This document shows, piece after piece, positions 2,481-33,032 of a DNA stretch of 34,413 nucleotides. Every line of letters begins with the position of its first letter. Position 1 is the stretch's first letter. Source of the stretch: a virus. Taxonomy: Duplodnaviria > Heunggongvirae > Uroviricota > Caudoviricetes. The stretch lies in the IMG/VR virus record IMGVR_UViG_2645728091_000016. One strand, 5' to 3'. The notes below the pieces were generated by a model, which was given only the letters and a program-made list of their open reading frames with translations, made no database searches and was not told the origin of the DNA. Made by a program: the position numbers and the translations under genes.

Positions 2481-2707
2481 TGGCTGATGCAATGGATCTC
2501 GTACAGCAGCGCGTTGAAGAAGAACGCCAACGCCATATCCGTGCTGCTCGTGCCAAAACGCCGGGCGTGTCCCGCGTGCTTTGCGTTGAGTGTGAAGCGC
2601 CAATTCCGCCAGCACGCCGCCGTGCCATTCCTGGAGTGCAGCTTTGCATTACCTGCCAGGAAATCGCAGAGCTGAAAGGCAAACATTACAACGGAGGTGC
2701 TGTATGA
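2480..2707 (+). CDS. TraR/DksA-family C4 zinc-finger protein
   Basis: CVECEAPIP...RRAIPGVQLCITCQ two CxxC pairs, resembling F-plasmid TraR; ATG overlaps upstream stop (TGATG). Confidence 0.7.
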   Translation: MADAMDLVQQRVEEERQRHIRAARAKTPGVSRVLCVECEAPIPPARRRAIPGVQLCITCQEIAELKGKHYNGGAV

Positions 2708-3561
2708 GCACCATCCTGAAATGGGCGGGTAATAAAACCGCCATTATGTCCGAACTGAAAAAATACCTTCCTGCTGGCCCGCGACTGGTTGAACCTTTCG
2801 CGGGTTCTTGTGCTGTGATGATGGCGACGGATTACCCCAGCTATCTGGTTGCGGATATTAATCCTGATTTAATCAACCTCTATAAAAAGATTGCCGCTGA
2901 TTGCGAAGCGTTTATATCTCGTGCCAAAGTTTTATTTGAGGAAGCAAACAGTGAGCTGGCTTATTACAACATAAGACAGGAGTTTAATTACTCAACTGAA
3001 ATTACTGATTTCATGAAGGCGATATATTTCCTATATCTCAATCGTCACGGTTACCGTGGTTTATGTCGCTATAACAAGAGCGGGTATTTCAACATTCCCT
3101 ACGGTAATTATAAAAATCCGTATTTCCCTGAAAAAGAAATTCGCGCATTTGCAGAGAAAGCCCAGCGGGCAACGTTTATCTGCGCGAGCTTTGATGAAAC
3201 GCTGGCGATGCTGCAGGTGGGGGATGTGGTGTATTGCGATCCGCCGTATGACGGTACGTTTTCCGGCTATCACACTGATGGTTTCACTGAAGATGACCAG
3301 TATCACCTGGCATCCATTCTTGAACATCGGTCATCAGAAGGACATCCGGTCATTGTTTCTAACAATGACACATCCCTGATTCGTTCGCTGTATCGCAATT
3401 TTACTCACCACTATATCAAGGCAAAACGCAGCATCGGCGTGTCAGCTGGCGAGGGTAAATCTGCAACAGAAATCATTGCTGTTTCCGGGCCGAGCTGCTG
3501 GTTGGGATTTGATCCTTCGCGTGGCGTGGATAGTTCTGCCGTGTACAGAGTGTGTGTATGA
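2704..3561 (+). CDS. dam: Dam-family DNA adenine-N6 methyltransferase
   Basis: [15 protein letters not shown] (SAM-binding motif I) and DPPY (motif IV); ATGA overlaps with both neighbours. Confidence 0.85.
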
Positions 3562-5972
3562 GTCATGACGATATGAACAATTGCAGCGGCTTTAACGAGG
3601 CCGCCGCAGCATTTTCATGGAACGGCTCGAAAAAGGCCATTAACCCTTATCTGGACCCGGCGGAAGTTGCGCCGGAGTCTGCACTTTCAAACCTGATCAC
3701 TCTGTACGCTGCCGATAACGAGCAGGAACAACTGCGCCGCGAGGCACTGAGTGAGCAGGTCTGGGAGCGTTATTTCTTTAATGAATCCCGTGATCCTGTC
3801 CAGCGCGAAATGGAGCAGGATAAGCTCATTAGCCGGGCAAAGCTGGCGCATGAGCAGCAGCGTTTTAATCCGGACATGGTCATTCTGGCGGACGTAAACG
3901 CCCAGCCTTCCCATATCAGCAAGCCGCTGATGCAACGTATTGAATACTTCAGCAGCCTGGGCAGGCCAAAGGCTTATTCCCGCTATTTGCGTGAGACGAT
4001 TAAGCCATGTCTGGAGCGACTGGATTGTGTACGTGACAGTCAGCTATCTGTTTCTTTCCGTTTTATGGCAAGCCATCAAGGGCTGGAGGGTCTGCTGATC
4101 CTGCCTGAAATGAGCCAGGATCAGGTGAAACGCCTGTCCACCCTGGTAGCAGCGCATATGAGCATGTGTCTTGAGGACGCTTGTGGTGATTTGTATGCCA
4201 CCGATGACGTTAAGCCAGAAGAAATCCGCAAGACATGGGAAAAGGTGGCAGCGGAAACCCTGCGTCTGGATGTTATCCCGCCTGCGTTTGAGAAACTTCG
4301 TCGGAAAAGAAACCGCCGCAAACCAGTGCCCTATGAACTCATCCCGGGTTCGCTGGCGCGTATGTTGTGTGCCGACTGGTGGTATCGGAAATTATGGAAG
4401 ATGCGTTGCGAATGGCGGGAAGAGCAGTTGCGTGCTGTCTGCCTGGTCAGCAAAAAAGCATCCCCCTATGTCAGCTATGAAGCCGTGATGCATAAACGTG
4501 AGCAGCGCCGTAAGTCGCTGGAGTTTTTTCGTTCTCATGAACTGGTGAACGAAGACGGCGACACGCTGGATATGGAAGATGTGGTAAACGCCAGCAGCAG
4601 CAACCCGGCGCATCGCCGCAATGAGATGATGGCCTGTGTTAAAGGTCTGGAGCTTATCGCGGAAATGCGCAGTGACTGTGCCGTTTTCTACACTATCACC
4701 TGTCCGTCGCGTTTCCATTCCACGCTCAATAACGGCAGACCAAACCCGACCTGGACAAACGCGACGGTAAGACAAAGTAGCGATTATCTGGTCGGCATGT
4801 TTGCTGCATTTCGTAAGGCTATGCATAAAGCCGAGTTGCGCTGGTATGGCGTGCGGGTAGCTGAGCCGCATCATGACGGTACTGTGCACTGGCATCTCAT
4901 GTGTTTCATGCGTAAAAAAGACCGCCGCGCCATCACTGCATTACTGCGTAAGTTTGCCATCCGTGAAGACCGCGAGGAGCTGGGCAATAACACGGGACCA
5001 CGCTTTAAGTCTGAGCTGATAAACCCGCGCAAAGGTACGCCAACAAGCTATATCGCGAAATACATCAGTAAGAACATTGACGGGCGTGGTCTGGCTGGGG
5101 AGATCAGCAAGGAAACGGGTAAATCCCTGCGTGATAACGCTGAATACGTTAATGCCTGGGCGTCTCTGCATCGTGTTCAGCAATTCCGCTTCTTTGGCAT
5201 TCCGGGGCGTCAGGCTTACCGTGAACTGCGATTGCTGGCTGGTCAGGCGGCAAGGCAACAGGGTGACAAAAAAGCAGGTGCGCCGGTACTGGATAACCCG
5301 CGCCTTGATGCCATTCTGGCTGCTGCTGATGCTGGTTGTTTTGCCACCTATATCATGAAGCAGGGTGGCGTACTGGTTCCCCGTAAATATCACCTCATCA
5401 GAACCGCTTATGAAATCAACGAAGAGCCAACCGCTTATGGCGATCACGGTATTCGTATTTATGGCATCTGGTCACCCATTGCAGAGGGCAAGATCTGCAC
5501 TCATGCGGTGAAGTGGAAAATGGTTCGTAAGGCCGTTGACGTTCAGGAGGCGGCTGCCGACCAGGGCGCTTGCGCCCCTTGGACTCGTGGCAATAACTGT
5601 CCCCTTGCTGAAAATTTGAACCAACAGGAGAAAGATAAATCAGCTGATGGGGACTCCAGAACGGACATTACCAGCATGGATGACAAGGAGTTGCACGATT
5701 ACCTGCACAGTATGAGCAAAAAAGAGCGCCGGGAACTGGCAGCAAGGTTACGCCTGGTGAAACCGAAACGGCGTAAAGACTACAAACAGCGAATTACAGA
5801 CCATCAGCGACTGCAGCTCGTGTATGAGCTGAAGTCCAGAGGATTTGATGGCAGCGAGAAAGAGGTCGATTTACTCCTTCGCGGAGGCAGTATTCCGTCA
5901 GGAGCAGGCCTGCGTATCTTCTATCGGAACCAGCGTTTGCAGGAAGATGATCAGTGGCGGAACCTGTATTAA
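3558..5972 (+). CDS. A: replication initiation endonuclease (P2 gpA-type rolling-circle initiator)
   Basis: About 805 aa from ATG 3558; HUH-type motif TVHWHLM; position after early operon. Confidence 0.9.
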
Positions 5973-6064
5973 TTCCGCGGGCTAACAATTCGTGCTCTTA
6001 ATAATACCAAGCATATCATGCTGATGAATGTAAAAAAACGTTTTACATCAGTAAGATTATTATA

Positions 6065-6084
6065 TACTGTAAATATAAACAGTG
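6065..6084 (+). promoter_or_regulatory. LexA (SOS) box TACTGTAAATATAAACAGTG
   Basis: CTGT-N8-ACAG with AT-rich spacer at 6067-6082, about 45 bp upstream of ATG 6126. Confidence 0.7.
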
Positions 6085-6125
6085 GTTATGCATACAGTGT
6101 TGCTTGTGGTGTCATAGGAGGAAAA

Positions 6126-6314
6126 ATGCAGGACTATTTTTTGGAGTCTTTGAAGCTCCAGCGCATTGATTTTTTTCTTAAGCTTGTAGCGGCTAGTGAG
6201 TGTAGTGATGAAGAGAAGGGGCTGGCTCTGCAGTGGGTTTCTGAATTGACTGATGAACTCATGGCAAAGATCAGAATCCACGAATACAGCCGCTCAATGG
6301 ATGTCATCAGTTGA
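6126..6314 (+). CDS. small SOS-controlled protein, possible Tum-type antirepressor module
   Basis: 62-aa ORF, ATG 6126 with GGAGG upstream; directly downstream of LexA box; position equals 186 tum. Confidence 0.45.
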   Translation: MQDYFLESLKLQRIDFFLKLVAASECSDEEKGLALQWVSELTDELMAKIRIHEYSRSMDVIS

Positions 6315-6324
6315 GGTGACTTTT

Positions 6325-6558
6325 ATGCGCATTGAAATAATGATCGATAAAGAGCAAAAAATTAGCCAGTCTACCCTGGACGCCCTTGAATCCGAGCTTT
6401 ACCGCAATCTGCGCCCCCTGTATCCCAAAGCGGTAATTCGTATCCGTAAAGGTAGCTCTAATGGTGTGGAACTGACCGGACTGCAACTGGACGAAGAAAG
6501 AAAACAAGTGATGAAAATTATGCAGAAGGTGTGGGAAGACGACAGCTGGCTGCATTAA
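6325..6558 (+). CDS. DinI-family protein
   Basis: MRIEIMIDK...LDALESEL...KIMQKVWEDDSWLH aligns along its length to E. coli DinI as recalled; ATG 6325 with GAGGTGA upstream. Confidence 0.8.
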   Translation: MRIEIMIDKEQKISQSTLDALESELYRNLRPLYPKAVIRIRKGSSNGVELTGLQLDEERKQVMKIMQKVWEDDSWLH

Positions 6559-6560
6559 GA

Positions 6561-6603
6561 AACGTTGCTGGCGTCTGAACTTGCTTCTGACGTCAGCAAC
6601 GTT
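6561..6603. terminator. strong stem-loop (15-bp stem with one G-U pair, 13-nt loop) between convergent DinI-like gene and orf177; putative bidirectional terminator
   Basis: AACGTTGCTGGCGTC...GACGTCAGCAACGTT inverted repeat seen directly; no clean U-tract. Confidence 0.35.
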
Positions 6604-6824
6604 GAACAACTAGTTTAGTGGGGCATTAGTCATGGGGTAAAATACAGTAACCATTATTTTCACTTCCGCTCAGATTTAACCGAACGTTAGTTTTGCTACG
6701 TATGATGGGCTGCAAATTACCTTTTGGGATTTGTGATAGATACGAAAATCCTATTAGATGCTTGTTAGACCGGAAGCGCCACTTCGAACGAAAAGTAATG
6801 GCCACTTATGCCGGTTTAAAAGCC

Positions 6825-7358
6825 TTAACCTTGTATAGTTATTTGAATATTTTCTTCATTAACACCAAAGTATAGGGCTAGCCCTGCTTTTGCCTCCTGA
6901 AGTGTTAACGGCTTAACTACATTTTCTTCTTCTTCTTCTTCGTACTCATCACCCGCTTGATCGACAATCGAATTAGTCGGGGTTAATTTGGGAAGAGCTT
7001 TAAATTCCAACTTGTCAGCCTCAATGCCAATGTCTTTGAGGTTGCGATAAGAAACGGGATTCCGATTGCCATCCCATTGTCCTGGGATGTCAATTTCAGC
7101 ATAAGAATTGATGTTTATGATCCAGCGTTTAGGGTTTTCTGGAGCCCTGCTTACTCCCGAGATTCGACCGATCATAAAAGCATGATGATGTTTTGCTTCT
7201 TGTGATCCCCAGTCCTTTCTCGAATTTTGTACACAAACTAAATATTCGTGCTTAGCTGCATGGCTGGCGTCAAGTCTCCATGCTTGGCTTCCCCCTGTGT
7301 TCAAAATCTCTGTTAAACCACGAGCAGTAAGTACAGTAATACAGTTGGTAGTAGCCAT
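6825..7358 (-). CDS. uncharacterised 177-aa accessory protein (orphan cargo gene; candidate anti-phage function)
   Basis: Clean ORF with ATG at 7358 and TAA stop; AT-rich; opposite strand to flanking phage genes; acidic EYEEEEEEN tract and HHH triplet; no family recognised by eye. Confidence 0.7.
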   Translation of the reverse strand: MATTNCITVLTARGLTEILNTGGSQAWRLDASHAAKHEYLVCVQNSRKDWGSQEAKHHHAFMIGRISGVSRAPENPKRWIININSYAEIDIPGQWDGNRNPVSYRNLKDIGIEADKLEFKALPKLTPTNSIVDQAGDEYEEEEEENVVKPLTLQEAKAGLALYFGVNEENIQITIQG

Positions 7359-7675
7359 TGAATTGTGACCCCGTCTTTTTTAGAAAAATACTGTTGATGA
7401 ATGTAGTTTACGTATTTTTTTATGGAGTAGTCAAGTTAGTATTATGCTCATTATTGGCTGTTTGTTGAGTGTTGTGAGTTGGTACTTTGTGTAGTACCTC
7501 TTGATTTATGATGATTAAATCTAAGTTATGACAAAGGGAGGCAGGGGGAACGCGCAGCGCAAGGTGGACAGGAGGCCATAAGGACTCACTTGAAGTAAGA
7601 AAAGATCGATAAAGCAACAATGCATGTCTATGCCGCATGAATTCGCATGATCGTTTGAGGATCGTTTTAGTTGAG

Positions 7676-7703
7676 GCCCGCCAGGAATGGCGGGCTTTTG
7701 TTT
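7676..7703 (+). terminator. rho-independent terminator GCCCGCC-AGGAAT-GGCGGGC followed by TTTTGTTT
   Basis: 7-bp GC stem plus T-tract read from sequence, inside the 480-bp non-coding stretch. Confidence 0.55.
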
Positions 7704-7744
7704 ATGTCATGCAAGTGCATGAAAACCACTACATAAAGCGGGCA

Positions 7745-7763
7745 GGCGTGGCGGGGATACGAG
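7745..7763. other. putative cos site (cohesive-end sequence) GGCGTGGCGGGGATACGAG
   Basis: First 13 nt match the 186 cohesive end as I recall it (GGCGTGGCGGGGAAAGCAT); GC-rich island in AT-rich DNA, upstream of the Q/P packaging genes. Confidence 0.45.
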
Positions 7764-7864
7764 CGCGCGAAATCCCTCTAATTTGAGCTAATCTGTTGAA
7801 AGTCATCCATTATTAATGATAAAAATTAGATGCGGATAATAAAAGTTAACAAAAGGTTGCAAAA

Positions 7865-8680
7865 TTGAACATTAATTTTGATGTTGTGATCAAGAGCGAT
7901 GATCATCAGGTTGATATGGATTATGGGTTGAAGACCCTGGCAGGAACTTCTAGAGTTGTTTCAACTATGGCTGAGGCAATTTTAAAAAAAGAGGTTTCGG
8001 AAAGAAGAACGAGTGTTAATGATATTAGGACACAGCTAAAGCAGAGTTTTAAAAGCTCTTATGGGCAAAATTTCTGTATTGAAGTTAATGATCCCGTTTT
8101 AAAAAGAAAATTAAAGAAAATGGGACACGATGTTTTTTGCGAAGTTATGTCCTATTATATTTCAGAGTCTATGTTTTTGGAGGCTAATAAATTAAGTTCG
8201 GCTGCTCAGGATGTTGTAAATGATCTTAATGATATAGAAGATAAATTGCTGGAGGTATTACGTCGAGGATTAATTGATATGCATAAAATAACTACAATGA
8301 GTAGTTTTAATGTCGAGCTAAATCATCACCCTCGTGGTAATAGGCAGCGAATTGCAACATTAACTCCGAAGACAGCTAAACATATTACAGAGACCGAAGA
8401 GGGTACTAGTGAATATCAGATTGATGTCATTTTTACTCGTTTTAATTCAATGACAGGTAACGGTCGGCTTATTGTAAGAAATGACGATAAAACAACCGCC
8501 TTTGGTCTTGCAAAAGGATTACGATTTGTTCCTTTGCACTTTAAAAAGAAAATTACTGAGAATCTTCATAAGAACAATGGATTAACTAAGCAAAATTGGC
8601 AATATGTAACGTTAACTGTACATGATTTAAAATTGGCTGGCGGGGAAGTAGTAAAATATTTTATTCATGAGATTTCATAG
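7865..8680 (+). CDS. uncharacterised soluble protein, gene A of a two-gene accessory operon (candidate defence sensor/enzyme)
   Basis: 271-aa ORF from TTG 7865 (AAGG 8 nt upstream); alternative in-frame starts GTG 7886 and ATG 7916; AT-rich; no motif recognised. Confidence 0.65.
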   Translation: MNINFDVVIKSDDHQVDMDYGLKTLAGTSRVVSTMAEAILKKEVSERRTSVNDIRTQLKQSFKSSYGQNFCIEVNDPVLKRKLKKMGHDVFCEVMSYYISESMFLEANKLSSAAQDVVNDLNDIEDKLLEVLRRGLIDMHKITTMSSFNVELNHHPRGNRQRIATLTPKTAKHITETEEGTSEYQIDVIFTRFNSMTGNGRLIVRNDDKTTAFGLAKGLRFVPLHFKKKITENLHKNNGLTKQNWQYVTLTVHDLKLAGGEVVKYFIHEIS

Positions 8681-9383
8681 AATGAAAAGAATAATATATA
8701 TTAGTTTTATCATTATAGTTGTAGTTATATCTATGTATTTTTACAACTTTAATACTGGAAAAGGGTTATCTAAAAGTACTGAGGTTTGGGGACAGTTCGG
8801 AGATTATTTGGGTGGGGTTGTTAATCCCATTCTTACTTTTTTATCAATTGTGTTATTGATTAAATCAATAGATTTACAACGTGATGCTAATGCAAGTATC
8901 ATTAATGAAAATAAGAGGCAGGAAAAGCTCGATTATCTGAAGAATTTTGAAATGCGATTTTATAGTTTGATCGACGCACAACGCACTGCATTCGAAAAGT
9001 TTACATTATTAAATGTTGATGGGGTAAATATAAAAGGAGTTGAAGCTGTAAATAAACTTGAGGATTTTATTTTTAACATGAAGAATGAAGGTAAGAGTAA
9101 GGAGGTTGTTTCTAAATTTATTACAGATTGCGATGTGTCTGAATCAATCTACTCTTCAGTACGGCGCTTTTATTTATTAGTCCGTCTCATAGATGAAAAG
9201 CTGGAACGTGAAGAGCGGGACGAATATTATGAGATACTGATTAATATGACTGATTTTCCGTTGGTTAGATTAATTGTTCTTGCATTATGTGTCTATGATT
9301 GGGATATAATAAAGTATATTGACTCTAGTTCTGTTTTAGCGAAGGATGAGTTGGTACAATATCGTGCATATTTTCAATTGTGA
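8667..9383 (+). CDS. uncharacterised membrane protein with two N-terminal TM helices plus about 170-aa soluble domain, gene B of the operon (candidate abortive-infection effector)
   Basis: ATG 8667 (or in-frame ATG 8682) overlapping gene A stop; hydrophobic segments IIYISFIIIVVVISMYFYNF and VVNPILTFLSIVLLIKSI. Confidence 0.7.
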   Translation: MRFHRMKRIIYISFIIIVVVISMYFYNFNTGKGLSKSTEVWGQFGDYLGGVVNPILTFLSIVLLIKSIDLQRDANASIINENKRQEKLDYLKNFEMRFYSLIDAQRTAFEKFTLLNVDGVNIKGVEAVNKLEDFIFNMKNEGKSKEVVSKFITDCDVSESIYSSVRRFYLLVRLIDEKLEREERDEYYEILINMTDFPLVRLIVLALCVYDWDIIKYIDSSSVLAKDELVQYRAYFQL

Positions 9384-9452
9384 TTTTAATAAGTTCATTG
9401 TTCGAATATGAAGAGGTATAAGGGGAATCTCCCCCCTTATACTTATCTATAG

Positions 9453-10481
9453 TTATGCCAATTGATAATCTATAAAATTAACAACTGTCGCGCCAAGCCA
9501 TTTATTAATCTCTTTTATGCGAATTTGTAATGGAAGAAGTTCATTTATCACAAAAACCTTACTGGCCTTCTCCACATCACCAAACCCGCCAACATTGCTA
9601 GGCATAATTCCCATCATCTGAGGCGGCACGCGGTGCGCTGCCATCATGTCATCGCGACTTACGTTCTTTATGTTCAGAAACTCATCCTTTGCCGCCACTT
9701 CTGACAGCGGGATGATCTGAAGCCCGTCCTTTTTGCCGTTAGGCGAGTACATAAACAGGTTGCGGAAGTTGCCCGGACCTTTGGCGCTTTTCATCGCGTT
9801 GCGGAGGTTGTTCACATCCTCCTGGTTCTGAGCGGCATCGGTCATGTACATTATGAATCCTGCATGGCTGCCATTAATATAATATTTGCGTCGGAACAGC
9901 GTGGCGGACTCGTTGAGCAGGGCTGACGGAATGGCAGAAAGATAACCGGGCAGGCCGTAGATCTCCTGGTTGATATCGGGTTCCATCAGATGAAAGATGC
10001 TGCCTTTCGTGAACTGATACGGCTGGGTTGTCATACCGTATTGCACAAACCAGTAGGTATCCAGGTCTAACCCGCGTCGGGTGTATTTTGCCAGAGCAGG
10101 CTCAAGGGCGATAACTTCACCGAACCGGTTCGTGCGTTTCTCTAGGTAGGCGTTACCAAATACCAGATAGTCCTGCACAAAACGTGAAAAAGCCTGCTGG
10201 CTGAGCAGCGGGTGAGGGATATAGGTGCTGGTCAGAATGTTGCACTTTACTGCAATCGGTGAGCTGTGGTGTACGGCGGCGCGGAATGTTCGCGCCAGGC
10301 CTTCGAAACTCACAGGCGGCTCATACCAGCGGTCCATCTGTACGCATTCCACATAGTCCAGCAGTTCGCGACGGTCCAGAACAGGAACGGGATCGCCGAA
10401 GCTGAATGCTTCGGCTGAAGTCTGGCTTTTATGCTGGATCTGATTCATCGCCGCTGCGCGGTTTTTCTTACTCTTTCCCAT
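9453..10481 (-). CDS. Q: portal protein (P2 gpQ)
   Basis: 342 aa from ATG 10481 (track uses TTG 10484); position and size match P2 Q; overlaps P stop. Confidence 0.9.
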   Translation of the reverse strand: MGKSKKNRAAAMNQIQHKSQTSAEAFSFGDPVPVLDRRELLDYVECVQMDRWYEPPVSFEGLARTFRAAVHHSSPIAVKCNILTSTYIPHPLLSQQAFSRFVQDYLVFGNAYLEKRTNRFGEVIALEPALAKYTRRGLDLDTYWFVQYGMTTQPYQFTKGSIFHLMEPDINQEIYGLPGYLSAIPSALLNESATLFRRKYYINGSHAGFIMYMTDAAQNQEDVNNLRNAMKSAKGPGNFRNLFMYSPNGKKDGLQIIPLSEVAAKDEFLNIKNVSRDDMMAAHRVPPQMMGIMPSNVGGFGDVEKASKVFVINELLPLQIRIKEINKWLGATVVNFIDYQLA

Positions 10482-12247
10482 CAAAAAATCTCCACAATAT
10501 TGCTGGTATTGGCGGATTCGCCCTGCAGCGGTTCGTTAAACAGTGCGTGCATCGTTGCCCAGGCCAGATCGGCGTGGCTGGCTTCTTCGCTGCGGCTGGC
10601 TTCATAGGTCGGGCGGTTGCCACTGGCAGTGGTAGCGCGACGGATTGCCATAAATGACTGCGCAATGTCGGTGTGCCCGGCGTCAAACTCCAGGCGGCGG
10701 TGGCTGATAATGTCGTAGGCCTTGAGTACCAGGGCGTTTTTAACGTTGGGGTTGTAGACAAACTCCCGGACGGCAGGAAAAAACGCTTTCACGTTCTCGT
10801 AAACCCCGTGACCGACGCCGGTCGAGTCGATGCCGATATAGGTCACGTTATACTGTTCGGTCAGTTTTTTGATGGCGTCAGCCTGGGCACGAAAGTCCAT
10901 TCCGCGCCACTGGTGACGCTCAAGAATGCGGAACTTGCCGCCCGGCACGGCTGGCGGAGCCACCACCACGCATCCGGCGCTGTCGCCGTTTTGCGTACCT
11001 TTTGCCGGGTCATAACCGATCCACACTTCGCGCCAGCCAAACGGGCGCAGCGCCAGTGCATGAAAGTCGGTCCTGACTTCCCAGCTGTCCACCATGCACG
11101 CCTGCAGCTCGCTGAGCGGGAACACGGACGCGAGATCGTCCACGAACTCACACATCAGCAGGTTCTGGTATTCGTCCGGGCTGTACTCCATGCGCAACTG
11201 GTCGAGGTCGAACAGGTTACAGCCGCCGCGCACCGCATCTTCCACAGTGACTATCTGGCGGTACTGCCCGTCTGCGCACAGCAGGCCGGGGGCCAGATTG
11301 CTGTGGGACAGGTCGATGTCCACCTTATCGGCTTTGTTGCGCCCTCGGTTGAACAGCGCACCGGACCAGAACGGATAAGCACTGTGTGTCAGGCTGGATG
11401 GCGTGGAAAAATAGGTTTGTCGCCATTTTTTGTGAATAGCCATACCGGAAGCCACTTTGCGCAGCTCCTGGAATTTCGGTATCCAGAAATATTCATCCAG
11501 ATACAGGTTGCCGTGGTAACTCTGGGCCGTGCGGGCATTGGTGCCGAGGAAGTACAGCGTGGCCCCGTTAGGAAGCACCATCGGATCGCCTTTCAGCTCC
11601 ACCTCCACTTCTTTGGCGAAGTCGATGATGTACTGCTTAAAGACGTGGGCCTGAGCCTTGCTGGCGGAAAGGAAAATCTGGTTGCGCCCGGTTAGCAGGG
11701 CGTCAATCAGGGCTTCACGGGCAAAATAGAAGGTCGCGCCGATCTGGCGTGACTTCAGCAGGTTGCGGATGCGGTTGGTTTTTCCGGCTTCCCACCAGTG
11801 GCGCTGGTAGTTGAACATGGAGGAATGGAAGATTTCTTCCAGCTTCTCAATCTGTTCATCGGTGAAAACGTTCTTTTCCGGCTGACGGCGCGGGCCTTTG
11901 TTGCGGTTGGCGACGTTAGGGTTTAAGTCGGCTTCGTTGCCGCCATTGTTAAACTTGCCGATCCGCGCATGGCGCTCCGACTGGCGCGCCAGCAGGTCAA
12001 TCTCTTTGAAATCTTTCCCTTCTTTGTGCTCCTTCATAATGAGCTGGCAGTAGCGTGCGGCGGTGGTGAGCTGCATCTGATCCAGCGGCCCATAGTCACC
12101 CCACTTGTCGCGTTTTTTCCAGCTGTGAACGGTTGCAACTTTCTCGCCCAGCATTTCAGCAATGCGGGCTACGCGGTATCCCTGAAAGTACAGCAGCATG
12201 GCCTGCCGACGGGGATCGAGATCTGCGGGTGTCAGTGTGGTGTTCAT
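10481..12247 (-). CDS. P: terminase large (ATPase) subunit (P2 gpP)
   Basis: 588 aa; N-terminus close to P2 gpP as recalled; divergent from O. Confidence 0.9.
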   Translation of the reverse strand: MNTTLTPADLDPRRQAMLLYFQGYRVARIAEMLGEKVATVHSWKKRDKWGDYGPLDQMQLTTAARYCQLIMKEHKEGKDFKEIDLLARQSERHARIGKFNNGGNEADLNPNVANRNKGPRRQPEKNVFTDEQIEKLEEIFHSSMFNYQRHWWEAGKTNRIRNLLKSRQIGATFYFAREALIDALLTGRNQIFLSASKAQAHVFKQYIIDFAKEVEVELKGDPMVLPNGATLYFLGTNARTAQSYHGNLYLDEYFWIPKFQELRKVASGMAIHKKWRQTYFSTPSSLTHSAYPFWSGALFNRGRNKADKVDIDLSHSNLAPGLLCADGQYRQIVTVEDAVRGGCNLFDLDQLRMEYSPDEYQNLLMCEFVDDLASVFPLSELQACMVDSWEVRTDFHALALRPFGWREVWIGYDPAKGTQNGDSAGCVVVAPPAVPGGKFRILERHQWRGMDFRAQADAIKKLTEQYNVTYIGIDSTGVGHGVYENVKAFFPAVREFVYNPNVKNALVLKAYDIISHRRLEFDAGHTDIAQSFMAIRRATTASGNRPTYEASRSEEASHADLAWATMHALFNEPLQGESANTSNIVEIF

Positions 12248-31346: not shown

Positions 31347-33032
31347 TTATCCTAATCCTGGCCATACCATGACGATGATTGTCCCTGCCAGCGTCAGCAG
31401 GACGTTGGCGATTGCATAGGTGCCCGCATAGCCCAGCGCCGGGATGTTACTGCGAGCTGTATCACTGATGATCTCCATTGCCGGCGCGCAGGTGCGTGCG
31501 CCCATCATTGCGCCGAACAACAGTGCGCGGTTCATTCGCAATACATAAGCACCGAACAAGAAACAGATAACCACTGGCACAAGACTGACAATCAATCCGG
31601 CAATCAACATCTGACCGCCAATCGCGCCCAGGCCGTTATTAATACCGCTACCGGCGCTCAGACCAACGCCTGCCATAAACACCATTAAGCCGAACTCTTT
31701 CACCATGCTTAATGCACCCTGCGGAATGTAACCGAAGGTCGGGTGGTTAGCGCGCATAAATCCCAGCATAATTCCGGCGAATAACAACCCGGCAGCGTTC
31801 CCCATGCCGAAACTGAATGTGCTGAACTGGAAGGTGATCATCCCGATCATCAGCCCAATAACAAAGAAGGCGCAGAATGCCAGCAAGTCAGTGACCTGGC
31901 TGTGAATCGAGATAAAGCCGATGCGATCGGCGATGGTTTTTACGCGACGGGCATCGCCGCTGACTTGTAAAACGTCACCTTTGTTAAGCACGACGTTGTC
32001 ATCTATCGGCATCTCAATCTGGCTACGAATGACGCGGTTAAGGAAGCAACCGTGATCGGTCAACTTCAGTTGTGCGAGACGTTTGCCAACGGCGTTATGG
32101 TTTTTAACGACCACTTCTTCAGTGACGATACGCATGTCGAGAAGGTCACGATCGAAAACTTCTTTGCCGTTACGGAAGCTGGGATCGAGTCGTGCGTGGG
32201 CGTCGGGATAGCCTACCAACGCTATTTCATCGCCCATTTGTAGCACAGCATCACCGTCTGGATTTGCCAGAATCCCGTTACGTCGAATACGTTCAATGTA
32301 GCAGCCAGTTTGTCGATAAATACCCAGTTCACGCAGATTTTTGCCGTCGGTCCAGGCCACCAGCTCCGGGCCGACGCGGTAGGCGCGGATCACCGGTAAA
32401 TAAACCTTACGGTTGGCATCAGTGTCCAGGCCACGTTCGCGGGCGATTTGCTGGGCGCTGGTCTGTAAGTCCTGATGCTGCAATTTCGGCAAGTAACGCG
32501 CACCAACAATCAAACTCACCAGACCGATTAAATAGGTTAAGGCATACCCGAGGCTCAGATTATCCAGTGCCAGTGAGAGCTGCCTGCTTTCCATGCCGGA
32601 ATGACGCAGTGTATCGCCAGCACCGACCAGAACCGGTGTCGACGTCATAGAGCCAGCTAACATACCGGCCGTCAGGCCAATATCCCAGCCAAACAGCTTA
32701 CCTAACCCTAAGGCGATCACCAGCGCACTGCCAACCATCACCAGTGCTAACATTAGGTAATTTTTCCCATCGCGAAAAAAAATGGAAAAAAAGTTCGGTC
32801 CGGCTTCGACCCCGACGCAGAAAATAAACAGCATAAAGCCAAGATTAAGCGCGTCGGTGTTAATGCTGAAATGTTGTTGGCCTAATAACAGCGATACGAC
32901 TAAAACGCCAATGGAATTACCCAGTTGGATCGAACCAAGTCGTAATTTCCCGAGACATAGCCCAAGCGCGAGGACCACAAATAATAACAGAATGTAATTC
33001 CCATTTAACAATTCGGCGACGTTTATATTCAC
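31347..33032 (-). CDS. ybjL: putative AAE-family transporter YbjL (two TrkA-C/RCK_C domains)
   Basis: 561 aa; sequence recognised as E. coli YbjL. Confidence 0.9.

What the first reader, a model, noticed from the sequence alone, without database searches (positions are those of the whole stretch)
7865..9383. Uncharacterised two-gene operon (soluble protein + 2-TM membrane protein) in the P2-family defence hotspot between cos and the portal gene
Two overlapping ORFs (271 aa and 238 aa, 14-nt overlap) form a compact AT-rich operon, by eye roughly one third G+C against over half in the flanking structural genes. It is inserted between the putative cos site and the 3' end of portal gene Q. In P2-like phages this slot carries old/tin and many other anti-phage systems. 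Gene A has no catalytic motif I recognise. Gene B has two N-terminal transmembrane helices and a soluble C-terminal domain. A soluble partner plus small membrane effector is the layout of many abortive-infection systems. I cannot place either protein in a named family from sequence alone.
Basis: partly seen in the sequence, partly recalled or inferred. Interest (0 to 1): 0.85.

Follow-up and report, generated by a model that had tools for sequence, protein, structure and literature searches.

The report
Untested two-gene AbiC-like phage-defence candidate
A P2-like prophage carries, in its known defence-gene slot, a rare mobile pair of genes that is very probably a phage-defence module nobody has tested: a soluble protein ending in a small beta-barrel, plus a short membrane protein distantly related to the lactococcal abortive-infection proteins AbiC/AbiP.

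Summary
Two real, conserved genes (A 7865-8680; B most likely 8682-9383, so a 1-nt gap, not a 14-nt overlap) form a 33% G+C cassette between the P2 cos site (7739-7770) and the portal gene stop (9453).

The cassette is rare cargo: 4 of 5,426 complete E. coli genomes carry it, while about 1,270 share the cos flank. Rousset et al. 2022 list it as P2-hotspot system #77, with no domain name, and did not test it.

Gene B is a short, divergent member of the AbiC/AbiP (putAbiC) superfamily. This shows only by profile-profile comparison (99.7%). It misses the Pfam and PADLOC models.

Gene A belongs to the uncharacterised DUF7946+DUF7947 family. Its basic C-terminal domain is an OB/cold-shock-like barrel.

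The A-then-B pair moves as a unit down to about 22-28% identity, on P2 hotspots, IncX4 and tiny ColE1 plasmids, and chromosomal islands. More remote gene A relatives pair with two other, unrelated membrane proteins.

Best reading (about 0.55): an abortive-infection-type module with a soluble sensor/regulator and a membrane effector. No function has been shown. It is a new variant of a known kind and of moderate interest.

The parts
7673..7698 (+). Intrinsic-terminator-like hairpin closing the upstream (DinI-side) transcription unit, just before cos
   Evidence: 11-bp stem with 7 G-C pairs, followed by a T run. It is conserved in other alleles.
7739..7770 (.). P2-type cos core; left boundary of the variable cassette
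   Evidence: The sequence is read and is invariant across four P2-like prophage alleles, with homology ending just after it. The same motif occurs in Rousset's cloned P4 sequences. About 1,270 E. coli genomes match only up to about 7770-7777.
7772..7864 (+). AT-rich upstream region that must hold the cassette's own promoter and ribosome-binding site (inferred)
   Evidence: The consensus scan found no plus-strand promoter at its threshold. By eye there is a weak candidate: TTAATG (7813-7818), 16 nt, GATAAT (7835-7840), then AAGG at 7853-7856, eight nt before the TTG start. This is inference only.
7865..8680 (+). Gene A: 271-aa soluble DUF7946+DUF7947-family protein (TTG start)
   Evidence: ORF. 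The start position is conserved (GTG in the HZ13 allele) and RefSeq makes the same call. PHROG 13337 at 4e-71. Sub-threshold Pfam DUF7946 (25.3 bits against a cut-off of 27), linked by profile to members above threshold. AF2 pLDDT 88.6. No TM segment.
8393..8677 (+). Gene A C-terminal OB/cold-shock-like beta-barrel (residues about 177-271; pI 9.3; invariant R192, T197-G-N-G-R201, N233, N237, K264)
8682..9383 (+). Gene B: 233-aa 2-TM AbiC/AbiP-like membrane protein (alternative, less likely start at 8667)
   Evidence: Start codon. PHROG 8999 at 1.6e-50. hhalign to putAbiC-bearing proteins gives 98.9-99.7% probability. AF2 pLDDT 88.9.
8691..8861 (+). Gene B membrane hairpin: TM1 (aa 4-22), loop with the invariant W36-G-Q-F-G-D-Y-x-G-G-V-x-N-P49 motif, and TM2 (aa 42-60)
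   Evidence: Hydropathy, helices, invariant columns. The motif is shared with solo putAbiC proteins.
9407..9451 (.). Hairpin (19-nt arms) between the gene B stop and the portal stop; probably a bidirectional terminator; right boundary of the cassette
   Evidence: Inverted repeat I4 and a terminator-like core at 9422-9434. Each allele carries a different hairpin at this position.
9453..10484 (-). Portal gene (gpQ homolog); conserved right flank
   Evidence: Pfam Phage_portal at 2.3e-16. RefSeq annotation of matching loci.

Best explanation
The cassette is a self-contained, horizontally mobile, two-gene anti-phage module of the abortive-infection type. The P2-like prophage carries it as hotspot cargo.

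Gene B is the membrane-anchored effector. It is an inner-membrane protein with an N-terminal two-helix hairpin bearing the WGQFGDYxGGVxNP motif, and an acidic helical domain that probably faces the cytoplasm. It is a shortened, divergent relative of the single-gene lactococcal Abi proteins AbiC/AbiP.

Gene A is its dedicated soluble partner. I propose that A senses infection or gates B through its basic OB/cold-shock-like C-terminal barrel, binding a phage nucleic acid or protein. It would then release or activate B, and B would stop phage development at the membrane at the cost of the infected cell.

Shown here:
- the anatomy and the conservation of both genes;
- obligate A-then-B linkage and mobility as a unit;
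- remote homology of B to AbiC/AbiP;
- the OB-like fold of A;
- swapping of membrane partners in remote relatives of A.

Inferred:
- anti-phage function;
- which protein senses and which acts;
- the membrane topology;
- the abortive outcome.
For: Position:
- The cassette sits exactly in the cos-to-portal slot that Rousset et al. showed to be a defence hotspot.
- It is variable cargo there: 4 of 5,426 genomes against about 1,270 with the same cos flank.
- Its G+C is foreign, 0.33 against 0.51-0.57.
- Two alleles only about 43% identical occupy the same slot.

Gene B:
- Its family aligns to PF16872 (putAbiC) proteins at 99.7% probability, E 2.6e-26, over 205 columns.
- Those proteins hit PADLOC AbiC and AbiP and stand alone in phage genomes.
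- AbiC and AbiP are proven membrane-anchored Abi proteins (PMC13064643).

Linkage:
- A and B are adjacent in the same order, with a gap of 2 nt or less or an overlap of 4-14 nt, in 10 loci down to 22-28% identity. Their divergences track each other: Pearson 0.95, Spearman 0.80.

Mobility:
- The pair occurs in P2 hotspots, in the P4 hotspot and on IncX4 conjugative plasmids.
- It is essentially the only cargo of a 4.65-kb ColE1 plasmid.
- It lies on a Rep3 plasmid beside YefM/YoeB and in chromosomal islands.

Modularity:
- All four contexts sampled of remote, genuine DUF7946+DUF7947 proteins have a membrane-protein gene immediately downstream. Those partners fall into two further classes unrelated to B.
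- Their neighbours include Mrr-like nuclease, PLD, Abi_alpha and QueC genes.

Gene A:
- It has a confident model whose basic C-terminal barrel matches OB/CSD folds. Its invariant polar residues cluster there.

Prior:
- 35-75% of untested hotspot loci proved protective when assayed.
Against: - No experiment exists for this pair or for any homolog.
- Gene B hits neither Pfam putAbiC nor PADLOC AbiC/AbiP directly. The link is transitive and strongest in the N-terminal 105 residues.
- The mechanism of AbiC/AbiP is itself unknown, so 'membrane effector' is argued by analogy.
- The OB-like barrel also resembles metal-binding (SilF/CusF) and sugar-binding (AB5 B-subunit) domains. It shows no profile similarity to cold-shock domains (0.24%).
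- Rousset et al. note that P2 hotspots also carry non-defence cargo, such as partition systems and a cytolethal distending toxin.
- Being the sole cargo of a tiny plasmid, and sitting next to toxin-antitoxin genes, fits an addiction module equally well.
- No promoter reached the scan threshold upstream of A.
Confidence: 0.55

Rival explanations
1. The pair is a toxin-antitoxin-like addiction or stabilisation module. B would be a membrane toxin held in check by A. Its main role would be to keep the prophage or plasmid in the lineage, with any phage defence secondary.
For: It is the only cargo besides Rop and an HTH gene on a 4.65-kb ColE1 plasmid. It lies next to YefM/YoeB on a Rep3 plasmid and near RelE on IncX4 plasmids. 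The two genes are tightly coupled and co-diverge.
Against: A (271 aa) is larger than B and is not a typical small labile antitoxin. It comes first and carries a conserved ligand-binding-type barrel. Solo AbiC-like relatives of B exist without any antitoxin. The P2 and P4 slots are enriched for defence rather than maintenance genes. Many Abi systems are also TA-like, so this rival overlaps the main reading rather than excluding it.
Confidence: 0.15
2. The pair is a non-abortive superinfection-exclusion device. B, in the inner membrane and helped by A, would block DNA entry or another early envelope step of incoming phages without killing the cell.
For: B is a prophage-encoded small inner-membrane protein whose most conserved motif lies in the loop and TM2 interface. 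Classical Sie proteins are membrane proteins of temperate phages (established knowledge). The hotspot cargo of phage AC1 protects against P2 relatives.
Against: Known Sie systems are usually single membrane or lipoproteins and need no cytoplasmic OB-fold partner. B's characterised relatives act after DNA entry: AbiC lowers capsid protein production and AbiP perturbs early transcripts. A has no signal peptide or TM segment, so it should be cytoplasmic.
Confidence: 0.12
3. The pair is lysogenic-conversion or other accessory cargo unrelated to phages, for example an envelope-stress, metal-handling or host-interaction function. Alternatively only B matters, as a self-sufficient AbiC-like protein, and A is an unrelated passenger.
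Against: A has no signal peptide, whereas SilF/CusF and AB5 B subunits are periplasmic or secreted. A and B are never seen apart in the 10 loci examined, and they co-diverge. Remote A relatives always keep a membrane partner and sit among nuclease and Abi genes. Spread across phages, satellites and plasmids is typical of defence cargo.
Confidence: 0.1

Closest known systems
AbiC / AbiP (lactococcal abortive-infection proteins; Pfam PF16872 putAbiC; PADLOC AbiC and AbiP)
   Same: Gene B shares the N-terminal transmembrane anchor (two helices, as in AbiC), the WGQFGDYxGGVxNP motif, the long helix after TM2 and the start of the C-terminal helical domain with putAbiC-bearing proteins (hhalign 99.7%). 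Those proteins in turn match PADLOC AbiC/AbiP. It is also carried on mobile elements.
   Different: B is shorter: 233 aa against about 280-350 in the sampled putAbiC proteins. It fails the Pfam and PADLOC models. It always comes with a dedicated upstream partner, whereas AbiC, AbiP and the bridging proteins are single-gene systems. It is found in Gammaproteobacteria rather than Lactococcus.
Pfam DUF7946 + DUF7947 proteins (uncharacterised)
   Same: Gene A has the same two-part architecture and length (about 270 aa). It connects by profile search to members above the Pfam threshold.
   Different: The window protein is itself sub-threshold: 25.3 bits against 27, and E 0.07 for DUF7947. No function is recorded for the family, and no paper in the searched library mentions it.
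Rousset et al. 2022 catalogue: P2-hotspot system #77 and P4-hotspot system #31
   Same: System #77 is this cassette. Gene B is identical and gene A differs by one residue; the number beside it in the table is 50, which I read as occurrences. System #31 is a homologous pair in P4 satellites.
   Different: It is only listed, with no domain name and the comment '2 TM in protein 1'. It was not cloned or tested in Table S2.
Two-gene 'soluble protein + transmembrane protein' defence systems from the same hotspots (e.g. HAD-like hydrolase + 3TM; RT-nitrilase + 1TM; TIR + TM proteins of phage AC1)
   Same: The layout and genomic slot are the same. In those systems the TM proteins are read as suicide effectors.
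   Different: There is no sequence relationship. The soluble partner here has no enzymatic domain that could make a signal, only an OB-like barrel and an unassigned alpha/beta plus helical N-terminal part.

Membership tests
AbiC/AbiP superfamily (putAbiC, PF16872) | N-terminal transmembrane anchor (two helices in AbiC, one in AbiP) followed by a helical soluble domain | tested here: met
   Hydrophobic segments at residues 4-22 and 42-60, then an all-helical domain. The architecture of AbiC/AbiP is described in PMC13064643.
AbiC/AbiP superfamily (putAbiC, PF16872) | Match to the Pfam PF16872 model at or above its gathering score | tested here: not met
   No putAbiC hit at E up to 1 for gene B. 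None of 67 family members hits it at E up to 0.01.
AbiC/AbiP superfamily (putAbiC, PF16872) | Match to the PADLOC AbiC or AbiP HMMs | tested here: not met
   No PADLOC hit for gene B or for six homologs. The bridging proteins P0139, P0140 and P0143 do hit AbiC/AbiP, at E-values from 6e-4 to 1.5e-6.
AbiC/AbiP superfamily (putAbiC, PF16872) | Profile-profile homology to proteins that carry PF16872 | tested here: met
   hhalign gives 98.9% over 93 columns. With permissive settings it gives 99.7%, E 2.6e-26, over 205 columns reaching the start of the putAbiC domain. Confidence is low in the last 50 or so columns.
AbiC/AbiP superfamily (putAbiC, PF16872) | Single gene sufficient for an abortive-infection phenotype | not testable with these tools
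   The architecture differs: an A partner is present in all 10 loci. The phenotype needs experiments.
Pfam DUF7946 + DUF7947 | N-terminal DUF7946 and C-terminal DUF7947 matches above the gathering score | tested here: inconclusive
   The window protein scores 25.3 bits for DUF7946 (cut-off 27) and 13.6 bits for DUF7947. Of 61 family members, 9 and 14 hit at E up to 0.01. The family profile retrieves proteins above cut-off, e.g. P0334 at 65.1 and 32.5 bits and P0329 at 44.1 and 34.6 bits.
P2 cos-proximal defence-hotspot cargo (Rousset et al. 2022) | Located between gpA and gpQ next to cos, and variable among otherwise related P2-like prophages | tested here: met
   The order is gpA 3552-5972, cos 7739-7770, cassette, portal 9453-10484. 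It is in 4 of 5,426 genomes against about 1,270 with the flank. It is listed as system #77.
OB-fold / cold-shock-domain nucleic-acid binders (gene A C-terminus) | Five-stranded beta-barrel of OB/CSD topology | tested here: met
OB-fold / cold-shock-domain nucleic-acid binders (gene A C-terminus) | Sequence-profile similarity to CSD (RNP1/RNP2 motifs), or demonstrated nucleic-acid binding | tested here: not met
   hhalign of A1 against CspA (sequence from memory) gives 0.24% probability, although the best local alignment pairs TRFNSMTGNGRL with KWFNADKGFGFI. The PDB profile search found nothing. Binding was not testable.
Known or candidate defence systems in PADLOC-DB v2.0.0 (includes Kiwa, Zorya, the Rousset-2022 hotspot systems and the PDC candidate systems) | Any HMM hit to either protein | tested here: not met
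   No hit for A, B, plasmid homologs, remote A relatives or the alternative partners. The only entries are noise-level, such as PDC-S42 at E 0.005 and ZorB at 3e-4 on a TM stretch.

The most novel reading that the evidence does not exclude
DUF7946+DUF7947 proteins are the conserved sensor or adaptor of a previously unrecognised family of two-gene defence systems. This sensor would plug into at least three unrelated membrane effectors: an AbiC/P-like 2-TM protein, a 188-aa 1-TM helical protein, and a protein of about 255 aa with one N-terminal and two C-terminal TM helices. The window's cassette would be the enterobacterial P2/P4/plasmid-borne representative. It would also give the first handle on how AbiC/AbiP-type membrane proteins are triggered, which has been unknown since 1992.
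Probability: 0.4. Interest if true: 0.65.

Novelty: new variant of a known kind. Interest (0 to 1): 0.5.

Why it matters
AbiC and AbiP were described decades ago, yet the trigger and mode of action of this membrane-anchored family are still unknown (PMC13064643). A version in which the function is split between a soluble, probably ligand-binding partner and a minimal membrane protein would help. It occurs in genetically tractable E. coli, on a 1.7-kb cassette that can be cloned with its own promoter region, so sensing and execution could be separated experimentally.

The finding that the soluble partner family pairs with three unrelated membrane proteins is a concrete, testable example of effector swapping.

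In practice, the pair is missed by the PADLOC-DB v2.0.0 models. That would under-count defence in P2/P4 prophages and in IncX4 and ColE1 plasmids of clinical Enterobacteriaceae.

Tried and rejected
- Direct family scans of both proteins found nothing usable: PADLOC and NCBIfam gave no hits, Pfam only sub-threshold DUFs, and PHROGs only 'unknown function' families.
- Scanning all 67 gene B homologs against Pfam gave no putAbiC hit. The AbiC link needed profile-profile comparison.
- PDB sequence-profile searches for both families returned nothing.
- The AFDB50 library was unavailable.
- I suspected a cold-shock-domain relationship from the TRFNSxTGNGRL motif. hhalign rejected it at 0.24%, so I keep it as fold resemblance only.
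- I checked whether the pair had already been tested or named. It is absent from Rousset Table S2 and from the held supplements of Vassallo 2022. It does not match the domain-centric screen, the Domainator paper, or the 2026 preprint that named Crouga, Bandua, Aernus, Toga, Reve and Hailong. Searches for DUF names, Pfam accessions, protein accessions, PHROG ids and motifs in 8 million papers found nothing.
- The consensus scan found no plus-strand promoter upstream of gene A.
- Repeats inside the cassette look like chance matches in AT-rich DNA, apart from the terminal hairpin.
- AB5-toxin-like and metal-chaperone readings of gene A were rejected because it has no signal peptide or TM segment.
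Full report
**1. What is there**

The window is a nearly complete P2/186-like prophage. Its order is CI repressor, CII, Dam-type methylase, gpA, DinI, cos, cassette, portal, terminase, capsid and tail genes, with a host permease gene at the right end.

The cos core, GCGGGCAGGCGTGGCGGGGATACGAGCGCGCG, lies at 7739-7770. It is invariant in three other P2-like prophage alleles, and the same motif occurs in the P4 sequences cloned by Rousset et al.. Homology to other prophages stops immediately after it.

Between cos and the portal stop (9453) lie exactly two ORFs, both on the plus strand. No ORF of 40 aa or more is found on either strand besides them. Cassette G+C is 0.327, against 0.505 for portal, 0.572 for terminase and 0.514 for the whole window.

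A terminator-like hairpin at 7673-7698 closes the upstream unit. A 19-nt-arm hairpin at 9407-9451 separates gene B from the convergent portal gene. Each allele of the cassette brings a different hairpin to that position.

**2. Gene models**

Gene A (7865-8680) starts with TTG. A 75%-identical allele has GTG at the same position, RefSeq calls the same 271-aa product, and residues 1-17 are conserved and modelled as a confident strand.

That codon sits inside A's last codons and is missing from a divergent allele. The ATG at 8682 is invariant and is the start used by RefSeq and by Rousset's table. So B is most likely 233 aa and lies 1 nt after A's stop. Other family members overlap by 4 or 14 nt.

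Both genes are under purifying selection. B has dN/dS 0.146, and 143 of A's 205 differences fall at third codon positions.

**3. Rarity and mobility**

The cassette is in 4 of 5,426 complete E. coli genomes: three at 98.6% identity or more and one at 75%. About 1,270 genomes share the adjacent cos flank.

Rousset et al. 2022 list it in Table S5B as P2 system #77. The table shows no domain name, the number 50 (probably the occurrence count) and the comment '2 TM in protein 1'. A homologous pair is P4-hotspot system #31. Neither is in their table of cloned systems.

A second allele, only about 43% identical, occupies the same slot in many more E. coli contigs.

Homologous A-then-B pairs also occur:
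- on IncX4 conjugative plasmids;
- as essentially the only cargo of a 4.65-kb ColE1 plasmid;
- on a Rep3 plasmid beside YefM/YoeB;
- in chromosomal islands of Chromobacterium, Aeromonas and an unidentified organism.

Across 10 loci the order is constant and the junction is a gap of 2 nt or less or an overlap of 4-14 nt. Divergence of A tracks divergence of B, with Pearson 0.95 and Spearman 0.80. The pairs are not phylogenetically independent.

**4. Gene B**

B has two hydrophobic segments (4-22 and 42-60). The invariant motif W36-GQFGDYxGGVxNP-49 lies in the loop and at the start of TM2. A 70-residue helix follows, then an acidic helical bundle. From the positive-inside rule I infer that both termini face the cytoplasm.

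Direct scans fail. There is no Pfam putAbiC hit for B or any of 67 homologs, and no PADLOC hit.

The weakest hits of the homology search are proteins carrying PF16872 (putAbiC). Profile-profile comparison to them gives 98.9% probability over the first 105 or so residues. With permissive settings it gives 99.7% (E 2.6e-26) over 205 columns, reaching the start of the putAbiC domain, where RRFYLLVRLID aligns with rTlxxiikwID.

Those bridging proteins match PADLOC AbiC and AbiP and are single genes in phage contexts.

AbiC (two TM helices) and AbiP (one TM helix, with a nucleic-acid-binding domain) are grouped as AbiC/P in a 2026 review. The review reports no functional prediction for either.

B is therefore a short, divergent branch of the AbiC/P superfamily. 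It fails the family's operational models and differs in always having a partner. No solved structure resembles it.

**5. Gene A**

A has no TM segment. PHROG 13337 is of unknown function. Pfam gives sub-threshold DUF7946 for the N-terminal part and DUF7947 for the C-terminal part.

An exhaustive HMMER search of 1.84 billion representatives with the family profile finds only 189 clusters. Nearly all are standalone proteins of 260-285 aa, and the remote ones pass the Pfam thresholds for both DUFs.

The AlphaFold model is confident (pLDDT 88.6, pTM 0.85). It shows an alpha/beta N-terminal part, a helical middle and a C-terminal beta-barrel. The barrel matches OB folds:
- about 7 to AB5-toxin B subunits;
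- about 6 to SSB, PriB, RPA and HIN domains.

Foldseek gives probability 0.95-0.98 to CspA and SilF, and 0.75-0.80 to the YB-1 cold-shock domain bound to RNA.

The barrel is basic (pI 9.3-9.7) and holds most of the invariant polar residues: R192, T197-G-N-G-R201, N233, N237 and K264.

Profile similarity to cold-shock domains is not supported (0.24%). Nothing in the PDB resembles the whole protein or its N-terminal part.

**6. Partner swapping**

I looked at the genomic context of five remote gene A relatives:
- One has a B-family partner (99.7%).
- Two have a 188-189-aa partner with one TM helix plus a helical domain. These two are 57% identical to each other.
- Two have a 255-260-aa partner with one N-terminal and two C-terminal TM helices around a beta-rich middle. 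These two are 58% identical to each other.

Neither of the last two classes is detectably related to B.

Neighbouring genes include an Mrr-like nuclease, PLD, Abi_alpha, QueC with a deoxyribosyltransferase, and an NYN/OST-HTH protein.

So the rule 'DUF7946/7947 protein followed at once by a small membrane protein' holds in every locus sampled, while the identity of the membrane protein changes. That is the pattern expected of a conserved sensor or adaptor with exchangeable effectors. Five remote loci is a small sample.

**7. Interpretation**

The best-supported reading is a two-gene abortive-infection-type defence module. A would be the cytoplasmic sensor or regulator, with its OB-like barrel as the probable ligand-binding site. 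B would be the membrane effector of AbiC/P ancestry.

I put this at about 0.55. The hotspot position, foreign composition, mobility as a unit, AbiC/P ancestry and partner swapping all point the same way. Untested cargo from these hotspots proved protective in roughly 35-75% of trials.

The rivals are a TA-like addiction module (0.15), non-abortive superinfection exclusion (0.12) and a non-phage accessory function or a passenger A (0.10). None is excluded, because no experiment exists.

**8. Novelty**

No paper in the searched library mentions the DUFs, the accessions, the PHROGs or the motifs. The studies that tested hotspot cargo did not include this pair.

It is catalogued but uncharacterised. 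One component comes from a known Abi superfamily and the other has no known function. I rate it a new variant of a known kind, of moderate interest, and a good, cheap candidate for experimental validation.

Noticed in passing
window 6600-7600 (ORF 6825-7358, minus strand): A second piece of rare variable cargo sits on the other (gpA/DinI) side of cos. It is a 177-aa protein (PHROG 37247, unknown function) with an acidic EYEEEEEENV stretch and no Pfam, NCBIfam or PADLOC hit. The segment is in 8 of 5,426 complete E. coli genomes, and none of those 8 carries the A/B cassette. The window is therefore a mosaic joined at cos, a combination not seen in the complete-genome set. Rousset Table S5A appears to list one draft genome with it.
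   Followed up: partly
window 8393-8677 (gene A residues 187-203): The invariant TRFNSxTGNGRL stretch lines up with the cold-shock-domain RNP1 region KWFNADKGFGFI of CspA, with the aromatic residues replaced by Arg and Asn. hhalign picks exactly this local alignment but scores it as noise (0.24%).
   Followed up: yes
L023:5803-6585, L030:4815-5582; L026:916-1482, L029:4858-5427: These are two further classes of small membrane protein encoded immediately downstream of remote DUF7946+DUF7947 genes. They have no Pfam or PADLOC hit. The 188-aa class has a TEFFLAQHRRLF segment after its TM helix that resembles FEMRFYSLIDAQRTAF in gene B, but hhalign does not support homology.
   Followed up: partly
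L029 and L030 (metagenomic contigs): Remote A-family pairs sit beside an Mrr_cat/Zn-ribbon nuclease and a PLD-like gene (L029), and beside Abi_alpha plus QueC and a PfkB/nucleoside-deoxyribosyltransferase gene (L030). Both look like defence-island neighbourhoods.
   Followed up: no
window 2644-3561 (+): A Dam-like D12-class orphan adenine methyltransferase sits just upstream of gpA (PADLOC oMTase 1e-109; Pfam MethyltransfD12). It is probably a prophage anti-restriction or regulatory methylase.
   Followed up: no
window 6018-6558 (+): A PHROG-698 small ORF and a DinI-family gene (Pfam DinI 1.4e-22) overlap in the listed reading frames (6018-6314 and 6253-6558). RefSeq relatives annotate shorter products, so the listed long starts are probably not the real ones.
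   Followed up: no
Rousset et al. 2022 Table S5B, row 86: The same P2 hotspot also carries a genuine putAbiC protein (WGQFGDYIGGVLNP motif) in a different four-gene arrangement with AAA_17/18, acetyltransferase and ASCH genes. AbiC-like proteins therefore recur in this slot with different partners.
   Followed up: no
window 31347-33032 (-): This is a host-type Asp-Al_Ex/TrkA_C permease (YidE/YbjL-like). It marks the right end of the prophage inside the window.
   Followed up: no
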